DNA from: Escherichia coli
GTDB lineage: Bacteria > Pseudomonadota > Gammaproteobacteria > Enterobacterales > Enterobacteriaceae
Assembly: GCF_003790525.1 (NCBI RefSeq)
Contig: NZ_CP033635.1
Reading direction: 5' to 3' (one strand)
DNA length: 64,000 bases
Shown in pieces: positions 8,715-54,363 of the stretch. The notes under the pieces were generated by a model. The model searched no databases. It was given only the letters and a program-made list of their open reading frames with translations, and was not told the DNA's origin. The translations under genes and the position numbers were made by a program. Position 1 is the first letter of the stretch; each line of letters opens with the position of its first letter.

Positions 8715-9788
8715 TTAGAACTGGTAAACGATACCCACAGCAACGGTGTCGTCTGAACCTACGCCCAGTTTGTTGTCAGAATCGATCTGGTTGATGATGT
8801 AGTCAACATAGGTGGACATGTTTTTGTTGAAGTAGTAGGTTGCGCCCACTTCAAAGTAGTTCACCAGATCAACATCACCGATACCTTCTACGTCTTTCGC
8901 TTTAGATTTGGTGTAAGCGATGGACGGACGCAGACCGAAATCGAACTGGTATTGCGCAACTAACAGAACGTCTTGCGTTTTGTTGGCGAAGCCGCCTTCA
9001 ATTGGCGTAGCGTTACGGGTTTCACCGTAGTTCGCTGCCAGGTAGATGTTGTTCGCGTCATACTTCAGACCAGTTGCCCACTGTTCAGCTTTTTTACCCT
9101 GACCGCGGAATTCGGCTTCCTGGGCGTCGGTACGGTCTGCTGCACCGTAAGCACCTACGATACCAAAGCCTTCGAATTCGTAGCTGATAGAGCCACCGAC
9201 GCCGTCGCCGTTGGAACGCTCAGGAATACCAGCACGTTCGTTTTTGCCCAGGTACTGAACGGCAAAGTTCAGGCCGTCAACCAGACCGAAGAAGTTGGAG
9301 TTACGATAGGTAGCAACGCCGCCTACACGACCAACGAAGAAGTCATCGCTGTATGCCGTGTCACCGCCAAACTCAGGCAGCATATCGGTGTAACCCAGTG
9401 CGTCGTAAACCACACCGTAGTTACGACCGTAGTCGATAGAACCCGCATCAGCGAATTTCAGACCTGCGAATGCCAGACGAGTTTTGTTACCTTTCTGGGC
9501 ATCAGCGCCTTCAGAGTTGTTACCCTGGAAGTTATATTCCCACTGACCGTAGCCGGTCAGATCGGAATTGATTTGTGTTTCCCCTTTAAAACCAAGACGG
9601 GCATAAGTTTTGTCGCCGTTTCCGCCGTAACTGTTTACACCATTGTCTTTAGAAAAATAATGCAGACCGACAGCTTTACCGTACAGATCTACTTTGTTGC
9701 CATCTTTGTTATAGATTTCTGCAGCGTTTGCAGTACCTGCTACTAACAGAGCAGGGACGATCACTGCCAGAATATTGCGCTTCATCAT
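8715..9788 (-). CDS. ompF: Outer membrane porin OmpF, 357 aa, non-K-12 allele
   Basis: Signal peptide [22 protein letters not shown], porin beta-barrel sequence ending in the C-terminal F; several loop segments differ from the 362-aa K-12 protein as I recall it. Confidence 0.95.
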
Positions 9789-22017: not shown

Positions 22018-24600
22018 ATGTATAGAACTCAACGACAACACAGCCTGTTAAGCTCTGGTGGAGTGCCATCGTTTATTGGTGGGCTGGTGGTGTTTGTGTC
22101 GGCAGCGTTCAATGAACAAGCTGAAACCTGGTTCGATCCAGCCTTTTTCAAAGATGATCCCTCAATGGTGGCTGATTTGTCTCGTTTCGAAAAAGGGCAA
22201 AAAATAACGCCAGGGGTTTATCGAGTCGATATTGTTCTGAATCAGACAATTGTAGATACGCGCAACGTCAATTTTGTTGAGATAACGCCAGAGAAGGGGA
22301 TTGCCGCCTGTTTGACGACTGAAAGCCTGGATGCAATGGGCGTGAATACTGATGCGTTTCCGGCTTTTAAACAACTGGATAAACAAGCGTGTGCGCCATT
22401 GGCGGAAATTATTCCGGATGCCAGCGTAACTTTTAATGTGAATAAACTCCGTCTGGAAATTTCAGTACCGCAAATCGCCATCAAAAGTAACGCTCGTGGT
22501 TATGTCCCCCCTGAACGTTGGGATGAAGGGATCAACGCGCTATTACTGGGATATTCTATTCATAGCAGCGCAGGTAGTGATTCTGGCGACAGCTATTTTC
22601 TGAATTTAAACAGTGGCGTTAATTTAGGCCCATGGAGATTGCGCAACAATTCAACATGGAGTCGCAGTAGTGGCCAAACCGCAGAATGGAAGAATCTCAG
22701 CAGCTATTTGCAGCGGGCGGTGATTCCATTAAAAGGCGAACTGACCGTCGGTGATGATTATACGGCAGGCGATTTTTTTGATAGCGTCAGCTTTCGTGGC
22801 GTGCAGCTGGCGTCAGATGACAACATGCTGCCAGACAGCTTGAAAGGGTTTGCGCCAGTGGTGCGTGGTATCGCCAAAAGCAATGCACAGGTAACGATTA
22901 AGCAAAATGGTTACACCATCTATCAAACTTATGTTTCGCCTGGCGCTTTTGAGATTAGTGATCTCTACTCTACGTCGTCGAGTGGTGATTTGTTGGTTGA
23001 AATCAAAGAAGCTGACGGTAGTGTCAATAGTTACAGTGTGCCCTTTTCCAGCGTGCCATTACTCCAGCGTCAGGGACGCATCAAATATGCGGTGACGCTG
23101 GCGAAATACAGAACCAATAGTAATGACCAGCAAGAAAGTAAATTTGCTCAGGCCACGCTGCAATGGGGTGGGCCGAGGGGAACGACCTGGTATGGCGGAG
23201 GGCAATATGCTGAATATTACCGTGCCGCTATGTTTGGTCTGGGTTTTAACCTCGGCGATTTCGGAGCAATTTCGTTCGACGCGACCCAGGCTAAAAGTAC
23301 GCTGGCAGACCAAAGTGAACATAAAGGGCAGTCATATCGTTTTCTGTATGCCAAAACGCTCAACCAATTGGGCACCAACTTTCAATTGATGGGCTACCGC
23401 TATTCGACGTCGGGTTTCTACACCCTTTCCGACACTATGTATAAACACATGGATGGCTACGAATTTAATGACGGTGATGATGAAGATACGCCAATGTGGT
23501 CGCGTTATTACAATTTGTTTTACACAAAACGTGGCAAACTGCAGGTCAACATCTCCCAGCAATTAGGCGAGTACGGTTCGTTTTATTTAAGCGGTAGCCA
23601 GCAAACTTACTGGCATACCGATCAACAGGATCGGCTATTACAGTTTGGCTACAACACGCAAATTAAAGATCTCTCGCTGGGGGTTTCCTGGAACTACAGT
23701 AAGTCCCGTGGTCAACCTGACGCTGACCAGGTGTTTGCACTTAATTTTTCCCTGCCGCTCAATCTGTTGCTCCCCAAAAGTAATGATAGCTATACCAGGA
23801 AAAAAAATTACGCCTGGATGACCTCTAATACCAGTATCGATAACGAAGGGCACACTACACAAAACCTGGGTTTAACGGAGACACTACTCGATGACGGTAA
23901 TCTGAGCTACAGCGTGCAACAGGGATATAACAGCGAGGGGAAAACGGCTAATGGTAGCGCCAGCATGGACTACAAAGGGGCGTTTGCAGATGCTCGAGTG
24001 GGCTACAACTACAGCGATAACGGCAGTCAACAACAACTGAACTACGCTCTTTCAGGCAGTTTAGTTGCCCATTCGCAGGGTATTACGTTGGGTCAATCAT
24101 TGGGTGAAACTAATGTCCTGATTGCCGCGCCAGGCGCCGAAAATACTCGTGTGGCGAACAGCACCGGGCTGAAAACTGACTGGCGTGGATATACCGTTGT
24201 GCCTTATGCCACTTCTTATCGGGAAAATCGAATTGCACTTGATGCGGCGTCGTTAAAACGTAACGTGGATCTTGAAAATGCCGTAGTAAACGTGGTTCCC
24301 ACCAAAGGGGCATTGGTTCTGGCGGAGTTCAATGCCCATGCGGGGGCTAGGGTATTAATGAAAACATCAAAGCAGGGTATGCCGCTGAGATTTGGTGCAA
24401 TGGCAACACTGGATGGCGCACAAACAATTAGCGGTATCATTGATGATGATGGTTCGCTCTATATGTCTGGTTTGCCGGCGAAGGGAACGATAACTGTACG
24501 CTGGGGCGACGCTCCCGATCAAATTTGTCATATCAGTTACGAGCTTACCGAACAACAAATTAACGCTGCGATTACGCGGATGGATTCAGTATGCGAATAA
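22018..24600 (+). CDS. elfC: Outer-membrane fimbrial usher ElfC (YcbS), 860 aa here
   Basis: Large usher-family beta-barrel protein with conserved C-terminal cysteine pair; an in-frame stop 4 codons upstream fixes the start. Confidence 0.9.
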
Positions 24601-27465: not shown

Positions 27466-27551
27466 TTTTTTTGCCACAGGTCAATTCCCTTTTGGTCCGA
27501 ACTCGCACATAATACGCCCCCGGTTTGCACACCGGGAATCCAGGAGAGTTC

Positions 27552-28562
27552 ATGTACTACCCCTTCGTTCGTAAAGCCCTTTTCCAGCTCGATCCAGAGC
27601 GCGCTCATGAGTTTACTTTTCAGCAATTACGCCGTATTACCGGAACGCCGTTTGAAGCACTGGTGCGGCAGAAAGTGCCTGCGAAACCTGTTAACTGCAT
27701 GGGCCTGACGTTTAAAAATCCGCTTGGTCTGGCAGCCGGTCTTGATAAAGACGGGGAGTGCATTGACGCGTTAGGCGCGATGGGTTTTGGATCTATCGAG
27801 ATCGGTACCGTCACGCCACGTCCACAGCCAGGTAATGACAAGCCGCGTCTCTTTCGTCTGGTAGATGCCGAAGGTTTGATCAACCGTATGGGCTTTAATA
27901 ATCTTGGCGTTGATAACCTCGTAGAGAACGTAAAAAAAGCCCATTATGATGGCGTCCTGGGTATTAACATCGGCAAAAATAAAGATACGCCGGTGGAGCA
28001 GGGTAAAGATGACTATCTGATTTGTATGGAAAAAATCTATGCTTATGCGGGATATATCGCCATCAATATTTCATCGCCGAATACCCCAGGACTACGCACA
28101 CTGCAATATGGCGAAGCGCTGGATGATCTCTTAACCGCGATTAAAAATAAGCAAAATGATTTGCAAGCGATGCACCATAAATATGTGCCGATCGCAGTGA
28201 AGATCGCGCCGGATCTTTCTGAAGAAGAATTGATCCAGGTTGCCGATAGTTTAGTTCGCCATAATATTGATGGCGTTATTGCAACCAATACCACGCTCGA
28301 TCGTTCTCTGGTTCAGGGAATGAAAAATTGTGATCAAACCGGTGGCTTAAGTGGTCGTCCGCTTCAGTTAAAAAGCACAGAAATTATTCGCCGCTTGTCA
28401 CAGGAATTAAACGGTCGCTTACCGATCATCGGTGTTGGCGGCATTGACTCGGTTATCGCTGCGCGTGAAAAGATTGCTGCGGGGGCCTCACTGGTGCAAA
28501 TTTATTCTGGTTTTATTTTTAAAGGTCCGCCGCTGATTAAAGAAATCGTTACCCATATCTAA
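27552..28562 (+). CDS. pyrD: Dihydroorotate dehydrogenase (quinone), 336 aa
   Basis: Matches PyrD from [21 protein letters not shown]; class 2 DHODH. Confidence 0.95.
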
Positions 28563-41122: not shown

Positions 41123-41575
41123 ATGAAATATCAACAACTTGAAAATCTTGAAAGCGGTTGGAAATGGAAGTATCTGGTGAAGAAGCATCGCGAAGGGGAG
41201 TTAATCACCCGTTACATAGAAGCCAGTGCCGCCCAGGAAGCCGTCGATGTGTTGCTCTCGCTGGAAAATGAACCCGTGCTGGTAAATAACTGGATTGATA
41301 AGCATATGAATCCGGAACTGGTCAATCGCATGAAGCAGACCATTCGGGCCAGACGGAAGCGCCATTTTAATGCGGAACACCAGCATACGCGCAAAAAATC
41401 GATCGATCTGGAATTTATTGTCTGGCAACGTCTGGCTGGTCTTGCGCAGCGTCGCGGTAAAACGCTTTCTGAAACGATTGTTCAGCTGATTGAAGATGCG
41501 GAAAACAAAGAGAAATACGCGAATAAAATGTCTTCTCTGAAGCAGGATCTGCAGGCATTGCTGGGTAAGGAATAA
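41123..41575 (+). CDS. matP: Macrodomain Ter protein MatP, 150 aa
   Basis: Matches MatP ([26 protein letters not shown]...), with C-terminal coiled-coil. Confidence 0.93.
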
Positions 41576-41607: not shown

Positions 41608-41638
41608 AAAAAAAACCCCGCAGCTGCGGGGTTTTTTA
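41608..41638. terminator. Bidirectional terminator between convergent matP and ompA
   Basis: A-run, stem accccgcag / ctgcggggt, T-run. Confidence 0.75.
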
Positions 41639-41650
41639 CCAGACGAGAAC

Positions 41651-42703
41651 TTAAGCCTGCGGCTGAGTTACAACGTCTTTGATACCTTTAACTTCGATCT
41701 CTACGCGACGATCCGGAGCCAGGCAGTCGATCAGTGCAGCACGCTGTTTCACGTTGTCACAGGTGTTGCCAGTAACCGGGTTGGATTCGCCCATACCACG
41801 TGCGGAGATTTTGTCTGCCGGGATACCTTTAGAGATCAGGTAATCAACAACGGACTGAGCACGACGCTCGGACAGAGCCTGGTTGTAAGCGTCAGAACCG
41901 ATGCGGTCGGTGTAACCCAGAACAACTACGGAACCGTCTTTCGGATCCAGGTTGCTCAGCTGGCTGTACAGCTGATCCAGAGCAGCCTGACCTTCCGGTT
42001 TCAGGGTTGCTTTGTTGAAGTTGAACAGAACGTCAGACTTCAGAGTGAAGTGCTTGGTCTGTACTTCCGGTGCCGGAGCTGGAGCCGGAGCAACTACTGG
42101 AGCTGCTTCGCCCTGACCGAAACGGTAGGAAACACCCAGGCTCAGCATGCCGTTGTCCGGACGAGTACCGATGGTGTGTGCGTCACCGATGTTGTTGGTC
42201 CACTGGTATTCCAGACGGGTAGCGATTTCAGGAGTGATCGCGTACTCAACACCGCCAGCGAAGACCGGAGAAACGCCGGTGTCGTGGTCTTTAGTGGATG
42301 CGCCACCAGGTACGTTAGACTTGGTGTCTGCACGCCATACCATACCACCCAGACGAGTGTAAACGTCCAGATCGTCAGTGATTGGGTAACCCAGTTTAGC
42401 GGTCAGCTGAACGCCCTGAGCTTTGTATGCGCCGTTGATGTTGTCGCCTTTGTACGGCATACGACCTAACCAGTCGTAACCCATTTCAAAGCCAACATAC
42501 GGGTTAACCTGGTAACCACCAAAAGCACCTGCACCCAGTTGGTTTTCGTGGGTCGGACCATTGTTAGGAATAAAACCAGTGTCATGGTACTGGGACCAGC
42601 CCAGTTTAGCACCAGTGTACCAGGTGTTATCTTTCGGAGCGGCCTGCGCTACGGTAGCGAAACCAGCCAGTGCCACTGCAATCGCGATAGCTGTCTTTTT
42701 CAT
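41651..42703 (-). CDS. ompA: Outer membrane protein A, about 350 aa, non-K-12 loop allele
   Basis: Signal peptide [21 protein letters not shown], 8-strand barrel, APAPAPAP hinge, OmpA-like peptidoglycan-binding C-domain; loop regions ([22 protein letters not shown]) differ from K-12 as I recall it. Confidence 0.95.
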
Positions 42704-43058
42704 TTTTTGCGCCTCGTTATCATCCAAAATACGCCATGAATATCTCCAACGAGATAACACGGTTAAATCCTTCACCGGGGATCTGCTCAATATTAACTCT
42801 ACCGATATCTTCGGCTTATGCCGAGCACCCCTGGCGATGTAAAGTCTACAACGTAGTTGAAAACTTACAAGTGTGAACTCCGTCAGGCATATGAAAAAAA
42901 AGTCTTGTATAAGGTACGTTTAATCTTTTTTGTCAGCGACAATTTACAGAAGAAAATCGCGGAAACCGCTTCAGACAAGCCTCTGCAAGGAAAATTAGTC
43001 ACGACTGAAAGCATTGGCTGGGCGACAAAAAAAGTTCCAGGATTAATCCTAAATTTAC

Positions 43059-43568
43059 TTAATGATACAAATTAGAGTGAATTTTTAGCCCGGAAAGTTG
43101 TCTCGTTGCGTGAGAGGAAGCGCTTACCGGACGCATAATAAACCCCATAGCGTTACCTTCATTTGCCGCATCAACAAGTTCAGCATGCTCTTCTTCAGTC
43201 AAATCATCTGCCAACCAACCGATCACCACACTGTAATTGCCCGTGCGTAAAGCGCGAACCATTGACTCCACGGTGTGGCAAGGGGAGAGCTGGCTAATCT
43301 GCATTACTTTCGTTAAGGGTAGCCCAGATGCCTGAACCCATTCGCGACTCAGTTTTTGTTGCGGTGTTAACCAGAGTTGCCAGCGCGATTGCTGACCGAG
43401 TTGCTGTAACAATGGCAACAGTAGAAGTTGCGTCATCATGGGCTGATCTTCGCGATAGACAACTTCACTGATAAGCCCGGCTGTAGTGTTTTCCGTAGAG
43501 ACACGCGCAATTTTACTTGCTGCGGATGAGAACGACGAAGAACGATGTGCATAGCCTGAAGTGTACAT
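43059..43568 (-). CDS. sulA: SOS cell division inhibitor SulA, 169 aa
   Basis: Matches SulA from [41 protein letters not shown]. Confidence 0.94.
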
Positions 43569-43590
43569 AATCAATCCAGCCCCTGTGAGT

Positions 43591-54275: not shown

Positions 54276-54363
54276 TGGCGGAAGCGCAGAGATTCGAACT
54301 CTGGAACCCTTTCGGGTCGCCGGTTTTCAAGACCGGTGCCTTCAACCGCTCGGCCACACTTCC
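54276..54363 (-). tRNA. serT: tRNA-Ser (UGA anticodon), 88 nt, class II tRNA with long variable arm
   Basis: Minus-strand sequence GGAAGTGTGGCCGAGCGGTTGAAGGCACCGGTCTTGAAAACCGGCGACCCGAAAGGGTTCCAGAGTTCGAATCTCTGCGCTTCCGCCA: acceptor stem pairs, anticodon loop CT-TGA-AA, encoded CCA end. Confidence 0.93.

What the first reader, a model, noticed from the sequence alone, without database searches (positions are those of the whole stretch)
41651..42703. OmpA surface-loop allele differing from K-12
Two loop segments differ from the K-12 OmpA I recall ([11 protein letters not shown] here versus SVENGAYKAQ; [11 protein letters not shown] here versus NVYGKNH), lengthening the mature protein by a few residues. 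The rest, including the APAPAPAP hinge and C-terminal domain, is conserved. Together with the OmpF differences this marks the strain as outside the K-12 lineage and points to diversifying selection on exposed epitopes.
Basis: partly seen in the sequence, partly recalled or inferred. Interest (0 to 1): 0.3.

Follow-up and report, generated by a model that had tools for sequence, protein, structure and literature searches.

The report
Known long-loop OmpA allele
This is an intact ompA gene carrying a rare subtype of the well-known "long" surface-loop form of E. coli outer membrane protein A, found in about 40% of strains and already sequenced, crystallised as a class and tested, so it is ordinary.

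Summary
ompA lies at window 41651-42703 on the minus strand and encodes 350 aa, against 346 in K-12.

It differs from K-12 at N25P (loop 1), SVE→DNI (loop 2, no length change), I93V, Y111P plus a 4-residue insert plus N114D (loop 3), and G251A.

It is not new. The protein is RefSeq WP_024175778.1. The window is about 99.96% identical to E. coli SMS-3-5 (ST354, phylogroup F). The allele belongs to the published ompA2 / "OmpA-long" class (PDB 9FZD), carried by about 39% of complete E. coli genomes. This exact loop pattern was listed by Liao 2017. The same protein sequence, in a clinical isolate, was shown to bind the long-specific nanobody.

Nucleotide divergence from K-12 is confined to codons 44-139: 10.9%, against 0-0.9% in the rest of the gene. 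There the window allele groups with E. albertii, Citrobacter and Salmonella, and K-12 is the outlier.

Pairwise dN/dS in the loops is 0.17. Synonymous divergence there (0.69) is at least as high as the E. coli-Salmonella value (0.45). This points to old allele classes reshuffled by recombination within the gene (published as "mosaic evolution"), not to recent point-mutation diversification. Phages are the documented agent acting on these loops; that they maintain the polymorphism is inferred.

Interest is low.

The parts
41651..42703 (-). ompA coding sequence, 350 codons plus TAA. The product is identical to RefSeq WP_024175778.1 'porin OmpA'.
   Evidence: ORF and translation. (annotation in SMS-3-5 and strain 2D, protein identical). 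(NCBIfam NF008071 porin OmpA, 677 bits against a cutoff of 277).
42641..42703 (-). Signal peptide, codons 1-21 ([21 protein letters not shown]). Identical to K-12 in both protein and DNA.
   Evidence: 0 nt differences in codons 1-43 against K-12, Citrobacter amalonaticus and S. arizonae.
42116..42640 (-). N-terminal eight-stranded beta-barrel domain, mature residues 1-175.
   Evidence: PF01389, residues 23-199, 2.8e-80. (172/175 identical to the solved OmpA-long barrel 9FZD). (AF2 model with 8 strands).
42287..42574 (-). Divergent block, codons 44-139, spanning loops 1-3. It differs from K-12 at 10.9% of bases, against 0-0.9% in the rest of the gene and about 1-1.5% in the flanks.
42566..42568 (-). 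Loop 1 polymorphic codon 46: CCT (Pro25 of the mature protein) against AAC (Asn) in K-12.
   Evidence: The loop-1 tip (residues 22-26) is unstructured in the model.
42437..42445 (-). Loop 2 codons 87-89: GAC AAC ATC (Asp-Asn-Ile) against AGC GTT GAA (Ser-Val-Glu) in K-12. Eight of nine bases differ and the length is the same.
   Evidence: The model places loop 2 at residues 63-70.
42362..42364 (-). Codon 114: Val93 against Ile in K-12. A conservative change near the periplasmic end of strand beta5.
   Evidence: Position 93 is described as transmembrane in PMC9560509.
42287..42319 (-). Loop 3 codons 129-139, [11 protein letters not shown], against SNVYGKN in K-12. The 12-nt in-frame extra segment aligns to about 42293-42304.
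   Evidence: The exact loop string is listed in Liao 2017 Table 3A.
42068..42106 (-). Pro/Ala-rich hinge ([13 protein letters not shown], residues 200-212). Identical to K-12.
41741..42028 (-). C-terminal periplasmic OmpA-like peptidoglycan-binding domain, with one replacement (G251A, codon 276, window 41876-41878). That replacement sits in a small second patch of differences at codons 276-298.
   Evidence: PF00691, residues 226-321..
42704..42835 (-). 5' untranslated leader, with the Shine-Dalgarno GAGG at 42712-42715. Identical to K-12 except a C4 run (42777-42780) where K-12 has C5. The start point at 42835 is taken from my recollection of the published ompA leader, not measured here.
   Evidence: the alignment is nearly invariant across E. 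coli, E. albertii, Salmonella and Citrobacter.
41608..41637 (-). Intrinsic terminator hairpin with an A-run and a T-run (CCCCGCAGCTGCGGGG stem-loop), lying between ompA and the convergent matP.
   Evidence: -19.9 kcal/mol, z = -3.9, 0 of 200 shuffles fold as well. The consensus scan missed it.

Best explanation
This is a normal, functional ompA gene carrying a rare subtype of the long-known 'ompA2 / OmpA-long' allele class. It sits in an ST354-like (phylogroup F) E. coli.

The protein is built like every OmpA. It has a signal peptide, an eight-stranded outer-membrane barrel with four surface loops, a Pro/Ala hinge and a periplasmic peptidoglycan-binding domain. Promoter, leader and terminator are essentially unchanged from K-12.

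What differs from K-12 is the surface that the outside world sees. Loop 1 has Pro25, loop 2 has DNI, and loop 3 is 4 residues longer ([11 protein letters not shown]). This surface is the docking site for T-even-type phage adhesins, colicins and antibodies. The allele class therefore decides which of these can bind, without altering the barrel or the cell-wall anchor.

The two classes are old. In the loop-coding block they are as diverged as E. coli is from Salmonella, and the window's class is the one shared with E. albertii, Citrobacter and Salmonella. They persist at about 40:60 in E. coli, and recombination inside the gene shuffles the loop cassettes between backgrounds.

Shown here: gene integrity, family membership, position of the differences, divergence pattern, frequency, and relation to other species.
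Shown by others: the same protein sequence binds the long-specific nanobody Nb39 and not Nb01, and natural loop variants change phage host range and cell-surface properties.
Inferred: that balancing or frequency-dependent selection by phages, colicins or host immunity maintains the polymorphism, and what this particular subtype does to any given phage.
For: Identity and family:
- NF008071 porin OmpA, 677 bits; PF01389 plus PF00691.
- matP-ompA-sulA synteny.
- Protein equals WP_024175778.1.

Class membership:
- 172/175 barrel residues identical to the crystallised OmpA-long barrel 9FZD.
- Liao 2017 lists ([16 protein letters not shown]) in 1 of 78 isolates.
- Power 2006 found ompA2 in 43% of 524 isolates by PCR, as reported in PMC5413513.
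- Evenly spaced rows of two searches over 5,426 genomes give 38 long alleles in 98 rows, or 39%.
- Clinical strain CS#17 (urine, O153) of PMC12259851 has the same OmpA, allowing for OCR noise. Nb39 bound it (78%) and Nb01 did not (0%).

Location:
- Replacements lie at loop tips in an AF2 model and in the published loop stretches. Fisher p = 9e-4.

Age and mosaicism:
- Codons 44-139 differ from K-12 by 10.9%, from E. albertii by 3.8% and from Citrobacter/Salmonella by 5.9-8.0%. Codons 140-350 differ from K-12 by 0.9% and from those genera by 9-11%.
- Loop dS is 0.69 against K-12 and 0.45 against S. arizonae. Non-loop dS is 0.035-0.08.
- The K-12 block has no relative closer than about 92% among 80 enterobacterial loci.
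- The polymorphic-site table shows a K-12-type loop 1 joined to long loops 2/3 (L003), and a shared C-terminal patch.
- Published recombinant types exist, for example DNI with NVYG.

Function of the variation:
- Natural OmpA loop variants cloned into MG1655 decide infection by Gp38-bearing phages (PMC12032242).
- Alleles change surface charge, hydrophobicity, biofilm and elastase sensitivity (PMC9560509).
- The mosaic-evolution model names ompA (PMC12175518).
Against: - Pairwise dN/dS in the loops is 0.17, so there is no direct signal of positive selection at this resolution.
- The loop dS estimates rest on only about 25 synonymous sites.
- Allele patterns partly track phylogroup. Nielsen 2020 concluded that chromosomal history accounts for most differences, so some of the distribution may be plain descent.
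- No experiment exists on this strain, and none tests this subtype against phages or colicins.
- The frequency estimate comes from sampled rows of a biased genome collection, not a full count.
- My AF2 model is only moderately confident (mean pLDDT 64.6).
Confidence: 0.88

Rival explanations
1. Recent diversifying (positive) selection by point mutation on exposed epitopes in this lineage. On this view the loops changed recently under immune or phage pressure.
For: All but two replacements are in surface loops. Within the long class, the window differs from the common ST131-type allele in the loop regions only by nonsynonymous changes: A108S and F116T, with dS 0 and dN 0.027. Position 116 is T, F, Y or D in different species. 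That fits small-scale adaptive change at the loop-3 tip. PMC12175518 reports occasional positively selected sites inside variable regions.
Against: For the K-12 versus window difference: replaced codons differ at 2-3 bases, 11.5 synonymous changes sit in the same short stretches, and omega is 0.17. The window's loop sequences are shared with E. albertii, Citrobacter and Salmonella, so they were not created in this lineage. The within-class signal rests on three nucleotide changes.
Confidence: 0.15
2. Neutral lineage marker. On this view the allele reflects only the phylogroup F ancestry of the strain and has no functional or selective meaning.
For: OmpA patterns are associated with phylogroups, and Nielsen 2020 attributes most differences to chromosomal history. 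The exact allele is seen mainly in genomes that are also near-identical over the surrounding 24 kb.
Against: Neutral descent does not explain a 288-nt block that is about 10 times more diverged than the rest of the gene and the flanks. It also does not explain both classes occurring within phylogroups A, B1 and B2, or the mosaic alleles. Allele swaps in an isogenic background change phage susceptibility and surface properties.
Confidence: 0.1
3. Recent horizontal import of the loop block from another genus (Citrobacter or Salmonella) into this strain.
For: The loop-3 peptide [11 protein letters not shown] is identical in a Citrobacter MAG (L005), and P25 with DNI also occurs in S. arizonae. 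In codons 44-139 the window is closer to these genera (5.9-8%) than to K-12 (10.9%).
Against: At the DNA level the nearest blocks are from Escherichia: L003 99.3%, L002 97.2%, E. albertii 97.8% and the ST131-type allele. Citrobacter and Salmonella are 93-96%. The Citrobacter MAG with the identical peptide differs by 6.9% in the block. So the class is resident in Escherichia.
Confidence: 0.03
4. Sequencing or assembly artefact in the loop regions.
For: None found.
Against: The frame is intact and the indel is 12 nt. The gene is 100% identical in strain 2D and has 1 synonymous difference in SMS-3-5. The exact loop-3 75-mer is in 38 complete genomes. The same protein was reported independently from a Swiss clinical isolate.
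Confidence: 0.01

Closest known systems
E. coli 'OmpA-long' isoform / ompA2 allele class (Power et al. 2006; Liao patterns II/III; reference barrel structure PDB 9FZD, PMC12259851)
   Same: Pro25 in loop 1, DNI in loop 2, a loop 3 four residues longer with the NVPGGAS-x-KD motif, 350 aa. 172/175 barrel residues match 9FZD. Same locus and same regulatory region.
   Different: Four residues differ from the commonest long allele (WP_001346420.1): Val93 for Ile, Ser108 for Ala, Thr116 for Phe (both in loop 3), and Asn203 for Thr.
Liao 2017 unnamed rare outer-loop pattern ([16 protein letters not shown]), isolate 256; and clinical strain CS#17 (urine, O153) of PMC12259851
   Same: The outer-loop pattern is identical. 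The full OmpA sequence of CS#17 matches the window protein, allowing for OCR errors, including N203 and A251. O153 is the usual ST354 serogroup.
   Different: Isolate 256 is listed with C-terminal pattern delta (A, T, A). The window has (A175, N203, A251), a combination outside Liao's alpha-delta set.
K-12 OmpA (pattern I,alpha; 'OmpA-short'; PDB 1BXW, 1QJP, 9FZC, 3NB3)
   Same: Same gene, locus, signal peptide, barrel strands, loop 4, hinge and C-terminal domain. 338 of 346 aligned residues are identical. Leader and promoter are identical apart from one C in a C-run.
   Different: N25P, SVE->DNI, I93V, Y111P, a 4-residue insert, N114D and G251A. The codon 44-139 block is 10.9% diverged at the DNA level.
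OmpA of E. albertii, Citrobacter amalonaticus/sedlakii and Salmonella enterica subsp. arizonae
   Same: 350 aa, DNI in loop 2 and NVPGGAS[T/F/Y]KD in loop 3. S. arizonae also has P25.
   Different: Outside the loop block they are 3% (E. albertii) to 9-11% diverged, as expected for different species.
'Mosaic evolution' outer-membrane protein genes of E. coli (fhuA, lamB, ompC, ompF, ompA; PMC12175518 and Chen et al. 2022)
   Same: A conserved scaffold under purifying selection, a few surface-loop hypervariable regions with a limited number of sequence types, and local recombination.
   Different: Nothing of substance. This gene is one of the named examples.

Membership tests
OmpA (porin OmpA, NCBIfam NF008071 equivalog) | The whole protein scores above the curated equivalog cutoff. 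| tested here: met
   677 bits against a cutoff of 277, covering residues 1-350.
OmpA (porin OmpA, NCBIfam NF008071 equivalog) | N-terminal eight-stranded OmpA-like transmembrane barrel. | tested here: met
   PF01389 over residues 23-199, E = 2.8e-80. Eight strands in the AF2 model. 98% identical to solved barrels.
OmpA (porin OmpA, NCBIfam NF008071 equivalog) | C-terminal OmpA-like peptidoglycan-binding domain joined by a Pro/Ala hinge. | tested here: met
   PF00691 over residues 226-321. The hinge [13 protein letters not shown] is identical to K-12.
OmpA (porin OmpA, NCBIfam NF008071 equivalog) | Orthologous chromosomal position (matP - ompA - sulA). | tested here: met
OmpA-long / ompA2 allele class | Loop 3 four residues longer than K-12, with the NVPGGAS motif. 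| tested here: met
   [11 protein letters not shown] against SNVYGKN. The class is defined by loop 3 length in PMC12259851.
OmpA-long / ompA2 allele class | Co-occurring Pro25 (loop 1) and DNI (loop 2). | tested here: met
   The co-occurrence statistics are in Liao 2017.
OmpA-long / ompA2 allele class | Bound by long-specific nanobody Nb39 and not by short-specific Nb01. | not testable with these tools
   Reported for clinical strain CS#17, whose OmpA sequence matches the window's: Nb39 78.4%, Nb01 0.0%.
OmpA-long / ompA2 allele class | Positive in Power's ompA2 PCR, whose forward primer lies on the ANVPGGA coding stretch. | not tested
   The window has Ser108 (TCT) instead of Ala at the first primer codon, so the assay might or might not score it.
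Genes under 'mosaic evolution' (local recombination plus purifying selection) | Divergence concentrated in a few surface-loop regions on a conserved scaffold. | tested here: met
   30 of 36 nt differences lie in codons 44-139, p = 6e-13. Non-loop omega is 0.05-0.08.
Genes under 'mosaic evolution' (local recombination plus purifying selection) | Evidence of intragenic recombination between variable regions. | tested here: met
   Mosaic site patterns among 8 alleles. Segment-specific distance matrices disagree. Published recombinant types exist. No formal breakpoint test was run.
Sites under positive diversifying selection (omega > 1) | dN/dS above 1 in the variable loops. | tested here: not met
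   Loops L1-L3 against K-12: dN 0.117, dS 0.69, omega 0.17. Within the long class there are 3 nonsynonymous and 0 synonymous changes, too few to test.

The most novel reading that the evidence does not exclude
The short/long OmpA loop dimorphism may be a very old balanced polymorphism. It could predate the Escherichia-Citrobacter-Salmonella split, or descend from an unsampled enterobacterial donor. On this reading the window's long type is the ancestral state and K-12's short type is the divergent one.

In addition, the two loop-3 replacements that set this ST354-type allele apart from the common long allele (A108S, F116T) could be a recent escape change affecting phage or antibody binding.
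Probability: 0.35. Interest if true: 0.3.

Novelty: already known. Interest (0 to 1): 0.08.

Why it matters
It matters little as a discovery. The allele class, this loop pattern and this exact protein are already in the literature and in RefSeq.

It does matter practically:
- The OmpA class predicts which OmpA-dependent phages, nanobodies or vaccine antibodies will recognise a strain.
- K-12 is a poor reference for this protein. About 40% of E. coli, and the neighbouring genera, carry the long form.

The only mildly instructive result here is how deep the two classes are. Synonymous divergence in the loop block is at least as high as the E. coli-Salmonella value for the same block.

Tried and rejected
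- **Loop-3 75-mer count.** It found only 908 genomes, because megablast needs a 28-nt exact seed. It gives the exact-variant count (38) but not the class frequency. I estimated class frequency from evenly spaced rows instead.
- **Local recombination hot spot.** I compared the window with a 99.2%-identical relative, CS6L. Differences are spread evenly over 24 kb, so this is uninformative.
- **Donor for K-12's short block.** Among 80 enterobacterial species representatives the best match is about 92% over the block. Loop 3 alone reaches 87% in an Enterobacter and 84% in Cedecea, so no donor was identified. I therefore could not test whether the short type exists outside E. coli.
- **Consensus promoter/terminator scan.** It missed the real ompA terminator, which I located by eye and by folding. 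It gave no credible promoter.
- **AF2 model.** Mean pLDDT is only 64.6. I used it only for strand and loop boundaries, and relied on the 98%-identical solved barrel for the rest. No fold search was run.
- **Chen et al. 2022 (AEM, mosaic evolution of porin genes).** Not held in the library. I used the 2025 follow-up instead.
- **Rfam.** It found nothing at ompA.
- **Rejected readings.** An artefact, a pseudogene, the 379-aa TTG-started ORF as the real start, and interspecies import.
Full report
**1. What is there**

The region holds a single intact gene on the minus strand. It starts at ATG 42703 and ends at TAA 41653-41651, 350 codons in all. It lies between matP (41123-41575, +) and sulA (43059-43574, -), exactly as in K-12.

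The product scores 677 bits on the NCBIfam equivalog model for porin OmpA, whose cutoff is 277. It contains the OmpA transmembrane domain PF01389 and the OmpA peptidoglycan-binding domain PF00691.

The longer 379-aa ORF listed from a TTG at 42790 is a mechanical extension. The real start has a GAGG Shine-Dalgarno sequence at 42712-42715, and the leader is identical to K-12's. A strong terminator hairpin follows at 41608-41637: -19.9 kcal/mol, and none of 200 shuffles folds as well.

**2. Checking the observation**

The recalled K-12 strings are correct.

The full list of differences from MG1655 OmpA, in mature K-12 numbering, is:
- N25P
- S66D, V67N, E68I
- I93V
- Y111P, followed by a four-residue insertion
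- N114D
- G251A

Two corrections follow. The whole +4 aa (12 nt) is in loop 3.

An AlphaFold2 model built on 33 orthologues has a mean pLDDT of 64.6, with better confidence in the barrel. It places strands at residues 6-21, 27-44, 49-62, 71-86, 91-109, 115-134, 139-148 and 163-174. Residue 25, residues 66-68 and the VPGGA stretch therefore sit at the tips of loops 1, 2 and 3. Residue 93 lies near the periplasmic end of strand 5.

The loop stretches are those displayed in the nanobody paper's Supplementary Fig. 8; I assigned their residue numbers myself. On that definition, 6 of 8 substitutions fall in 63 loop residues (Fisher p = 9e-4). Thirty of 36 nucleotide differences fall in codons 44-139 (p = 6e-13).

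The allele is not an artefact. Strain 2D has the identical gene. SMS-3-5 differs by one synonymous base. The exact 75-nt loop-3 stretch is in 38 complete genomes.

**3. Whose genome**

Window 18018-64000 matches E. coli SMS-3-5 at 99.957%, with two mismatches and one 18-bp gap. About twenty other complete genomes from humans, chickens, dogs and river water are 100% identical over 24 kb.

SMS-3-5 is ST354 (PMC9174282). ST354 is phylogroup F and typically O153:H34 (PMC11183298). The strain is therefore outside the K-12 lineage, with flanks about 1-1.5% diverged. That conclusion comes from the whole window, not from ompA.

**4. Allele typing against known classes**

The polymorphism has a long record, summarised here from the papers cited below (chiefly PMC5413513):
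- Gophna 2004 and Power 2006 described two forms. Power's ompA2 was found in 43% of 524 isolates by PCR.
- Liao 2017 catalogued outer-loop patterns. That paper lists exactly ([16 protein letters not shown]) in one of 78 isolates (PMC5413513).
- Nielsen 2020 and Liao 2022 mapped patterns onto pathotypes and phylogroups.

The window's barrel is 172/175 identical to 9FZD. The nanobody paper's clinical strain CS#17 (urine, O153) has the window's OmpA sequence, allowing for OCR noise. Nb39 bound it (78%) and Nb01 did not (0%). The protein is RefSeq WP_024175778.1.

Against the commonest long allele (WP_001346420.1) it differs at Val93, Ser108, Thr116 and Asn203. Its C-terminal combination (A175, N203, A251) is not one of Liao's alpha-delta types.

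**5. Frequency**

ompA is present in 5,425 of 5,426 complete genomes. I counted evenly spaced rows of the ranked hit lists:
- With the window as query, 16 of 39 chromosomal rows are 1053-bp alleles.
- With K-12 as query, 22 of 59 rows are 1053 bp, 36 are 1041 bp and one is 1056 bp.

Together that is 38 of 98, or about 39% long, in line with Power's 43%. The window's own subtype is rare. Ninety-one records are at least 99% identical over the gene, and 38 have the exact loop-3 DNA.

**6. How the difference arose**

Nucleotide differences from K-12 are not spread along the gene. There are none in codons 1-43, 10.9% in codons 44-139 and 0.9% in codons 140-350. The flanking genes differ by about 1-1.5%.

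Replaced codons differ at two or three bases, for example CCT/AAC, AAC/GTT and ATC/GAA. Synonymous changes cluster right beside them.

Nei-Gojobori estimates against K-12 are as follows:

| Region | dS | dN | omega |
|---|---|---|---|
| Loops 1-3 | 0.69 | 0.117 | 0.17 |
| Non-loop barrel | 0.079 | 0.004 | 0.05 |
| Linker plus C-terminal domain | 0.035 | 0.003 | 0.08 |

In the loop segments, dS between the window and K-12 (0.69) is at least as large as between the window and S. arizonae (0.45) or Citrobacter (0.29-0.51). Elsewhere it is five to ten times smaller than the between-genus values.

In codons 44-139 the window is 2.4-3.8% from other Escherichia long alleles and E. albertii. It is 5.9-8% from Citrobacter and Salmonella, and 10.9% from K-12. 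K-12 is 8.7-12.7% from everything.

The protein alignment shows DNI and NVPGGAS[T/F/Y]KD in E. albertii, C. amalonaticus, C. sedlakii and S. arizonae. A BLAST of the K-12 block against 80 enterobacterial loci finds nothing closer than about 92%. The long form is therefore the shared, probably ancestral, state, and K-12's short form is the divergent one. 'Lengthening' is a reference-bias description.

Mosaic alleles are visible even in eight sequences. L003 joins a K-12-type loop 1 to long loops 2 and 3. L084 shares K-12's states in a codon 276-291 patch. Published types such as DNI with NVYG exist.

All of this matches the published 'mosaic evolution' description of ompA: purifying selection on the scaffold, a limited set of loop types, and local recombination (PMC12175518).

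Caveats apply. The loop dS estimates rest on about 25 synonymous sites, and I ran no formal recombination or site-model test.

**7. How it most likely works**

The barrel strands, loop 4, hinge, C-terminal domain, promoter and leader are unchanged or nearly so. Expression, assembly and cell-wall anchoring should therefore be as in K-12. That is an inference from sequence identity. What changes is the outward-facing surface formed by loops 1-3.

Others have shown the following:
- Natural OmpA loop variants cloned into MG1655 determine which Gp38-bearing T-even-type phages can infect. Narrow-host phages need particular loop 2 and loop 3 combinations (PMC12032242).
- Phage- and colicin-resistant ompA mutants map almost entirely to loops 2 and 3 (as cited in PMC9560509).
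- Alleles alter surface charge, hydrophobicity, biofilm formation and elastase sensitivity.
- Nanobodies are strictly class-specific.

The best-supported mechanism is therefore receptor-surface variation that changes susceptibility to phages, colicins and antibodies. The two classes would be held in the species by frequency-dependent or otherwise balancing selection, and moved between backgrounds by recombination. The selective agent, and the effect of this particular subtype, are inferred and not shown.

Within the long class, the window's two loop-3 replacements (A108S, F116T) come with no synonymous change. Position 116 varies as T, F, Y or D among species. This is a hint of fine-scale adaptation at the loop tip, but it is far too few changes to test.

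**8. Rivals**

- Recent point-mutation diversification of the K-12 versus window difference is contradicted by the multi-base codon changes, the high local dS and the sharing with other genera.
- A purely neutral lineage marker does not explain the tenfold local excess of divergence, or both classes occurring within single phylogroups.
- Recent import from Citrobacter or Salmonella is contradicted by closer Escherichia relatives at the DNA level.
- An artefact is excluded by independent genomes.

**9. Verdict**

The feature is a rare subtype of a common, well-characterised OmpA allele class. It is already known and of low interest.

The one point worth keeping is that K-12 is the atypical reference here. 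The two classes are, in the loop block, as old as the split between genera.

Noticed in passing
window 8715-9788 (minus strand): ompF encodes 357 aa, against 362 in K-12. Compared with K-12 OmpF (PDB 3HW9) there are clustered replacements, including SKDNGVNS against [18 protein letters not shown] against NERD-TARRS, and [11 protein letters not shown] against NLQEAQPLGNG. There is also a 6-residue deletion ([10 protein letters not shown] against TPITNKFTNTSGFANK). I did not map these stretches to named loops. This looks like another variable-loop porin allele, consistent with the mosaic-evolution literature.
   Followed up: partly
window 22018-24600 (plus strand): The elfC fimbrial usher is 860 aa here and 866 aa in SMS-3-5. 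This probably accounts for the single 18-bp gap in the 46-kb alignment with SMS-3-5 (99.957% identity).
   Followed up: partly
window 42575-42890 (minus strand): ompA promoter-proximal region, leader and codons 1-43: This stretch is very strongly conserved at the DNA level. There are zero differences in codons 1-43 between E. coli, Citrobacter amalonaticus and S. arizonae, and the leader is almost invariant, while the rest of the gene is 9-11% diverged. The only E. coli variation is a C-run of 4 (window 42777-42780, as in the ST131-type allele, E. albertii and Salmonella) against 5 in K-12. From general knowledge, this probably reflects mRNA-stability, small-RNA and translation signals.
   Followed up: partly
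window 42287-42319, compared with L083, L002, L004, L007 and L008: Within the long allele class, residue 116 at the loop-3 tip is T, F, Y or D in different strains and species. The window differs from the common E. coli long allele in the loop regions by nonsynonymous changes only.
   Followed up: partly
NZ_CP097216.1 (4,668-bp plasmid record of E. coli BE311), positions 635-978: A small plasmid carries a fragment 100% identical to K-12 ompA nt 199-542, annotated 'outer membrane beta-barrel protein'. This may be a cloning or display construct, or an assembly oddity.
   Followed up: no
relatives H41, H42, H61 and H62 of window 30000-54000: Four otherwise 100%-identical genomes match in two pieces spanning about 25.4 kb instead of 24.0 kb. 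They therefore carry an insertion of about 1.4 kb somewhere in this region that the window lacks. It could be an insertion sequence.
   Followed up: no
window 42704-42790 (minus strand): The mechanical ORF list extends ompA upstream to a TTG at 42790, giving 379 aa. This overlaps the untranslated leader and is not the real start.
   Followed up: yes
window 27484-27557 (+) and 54279-54363 (-): These were the only Rfam hits in the window: the PyrD leader upstream of pyrD, and a tRNA annotated tRNA-Ser in SMS-3-5. Both are ordinary core-genome features.
   Followed up: no
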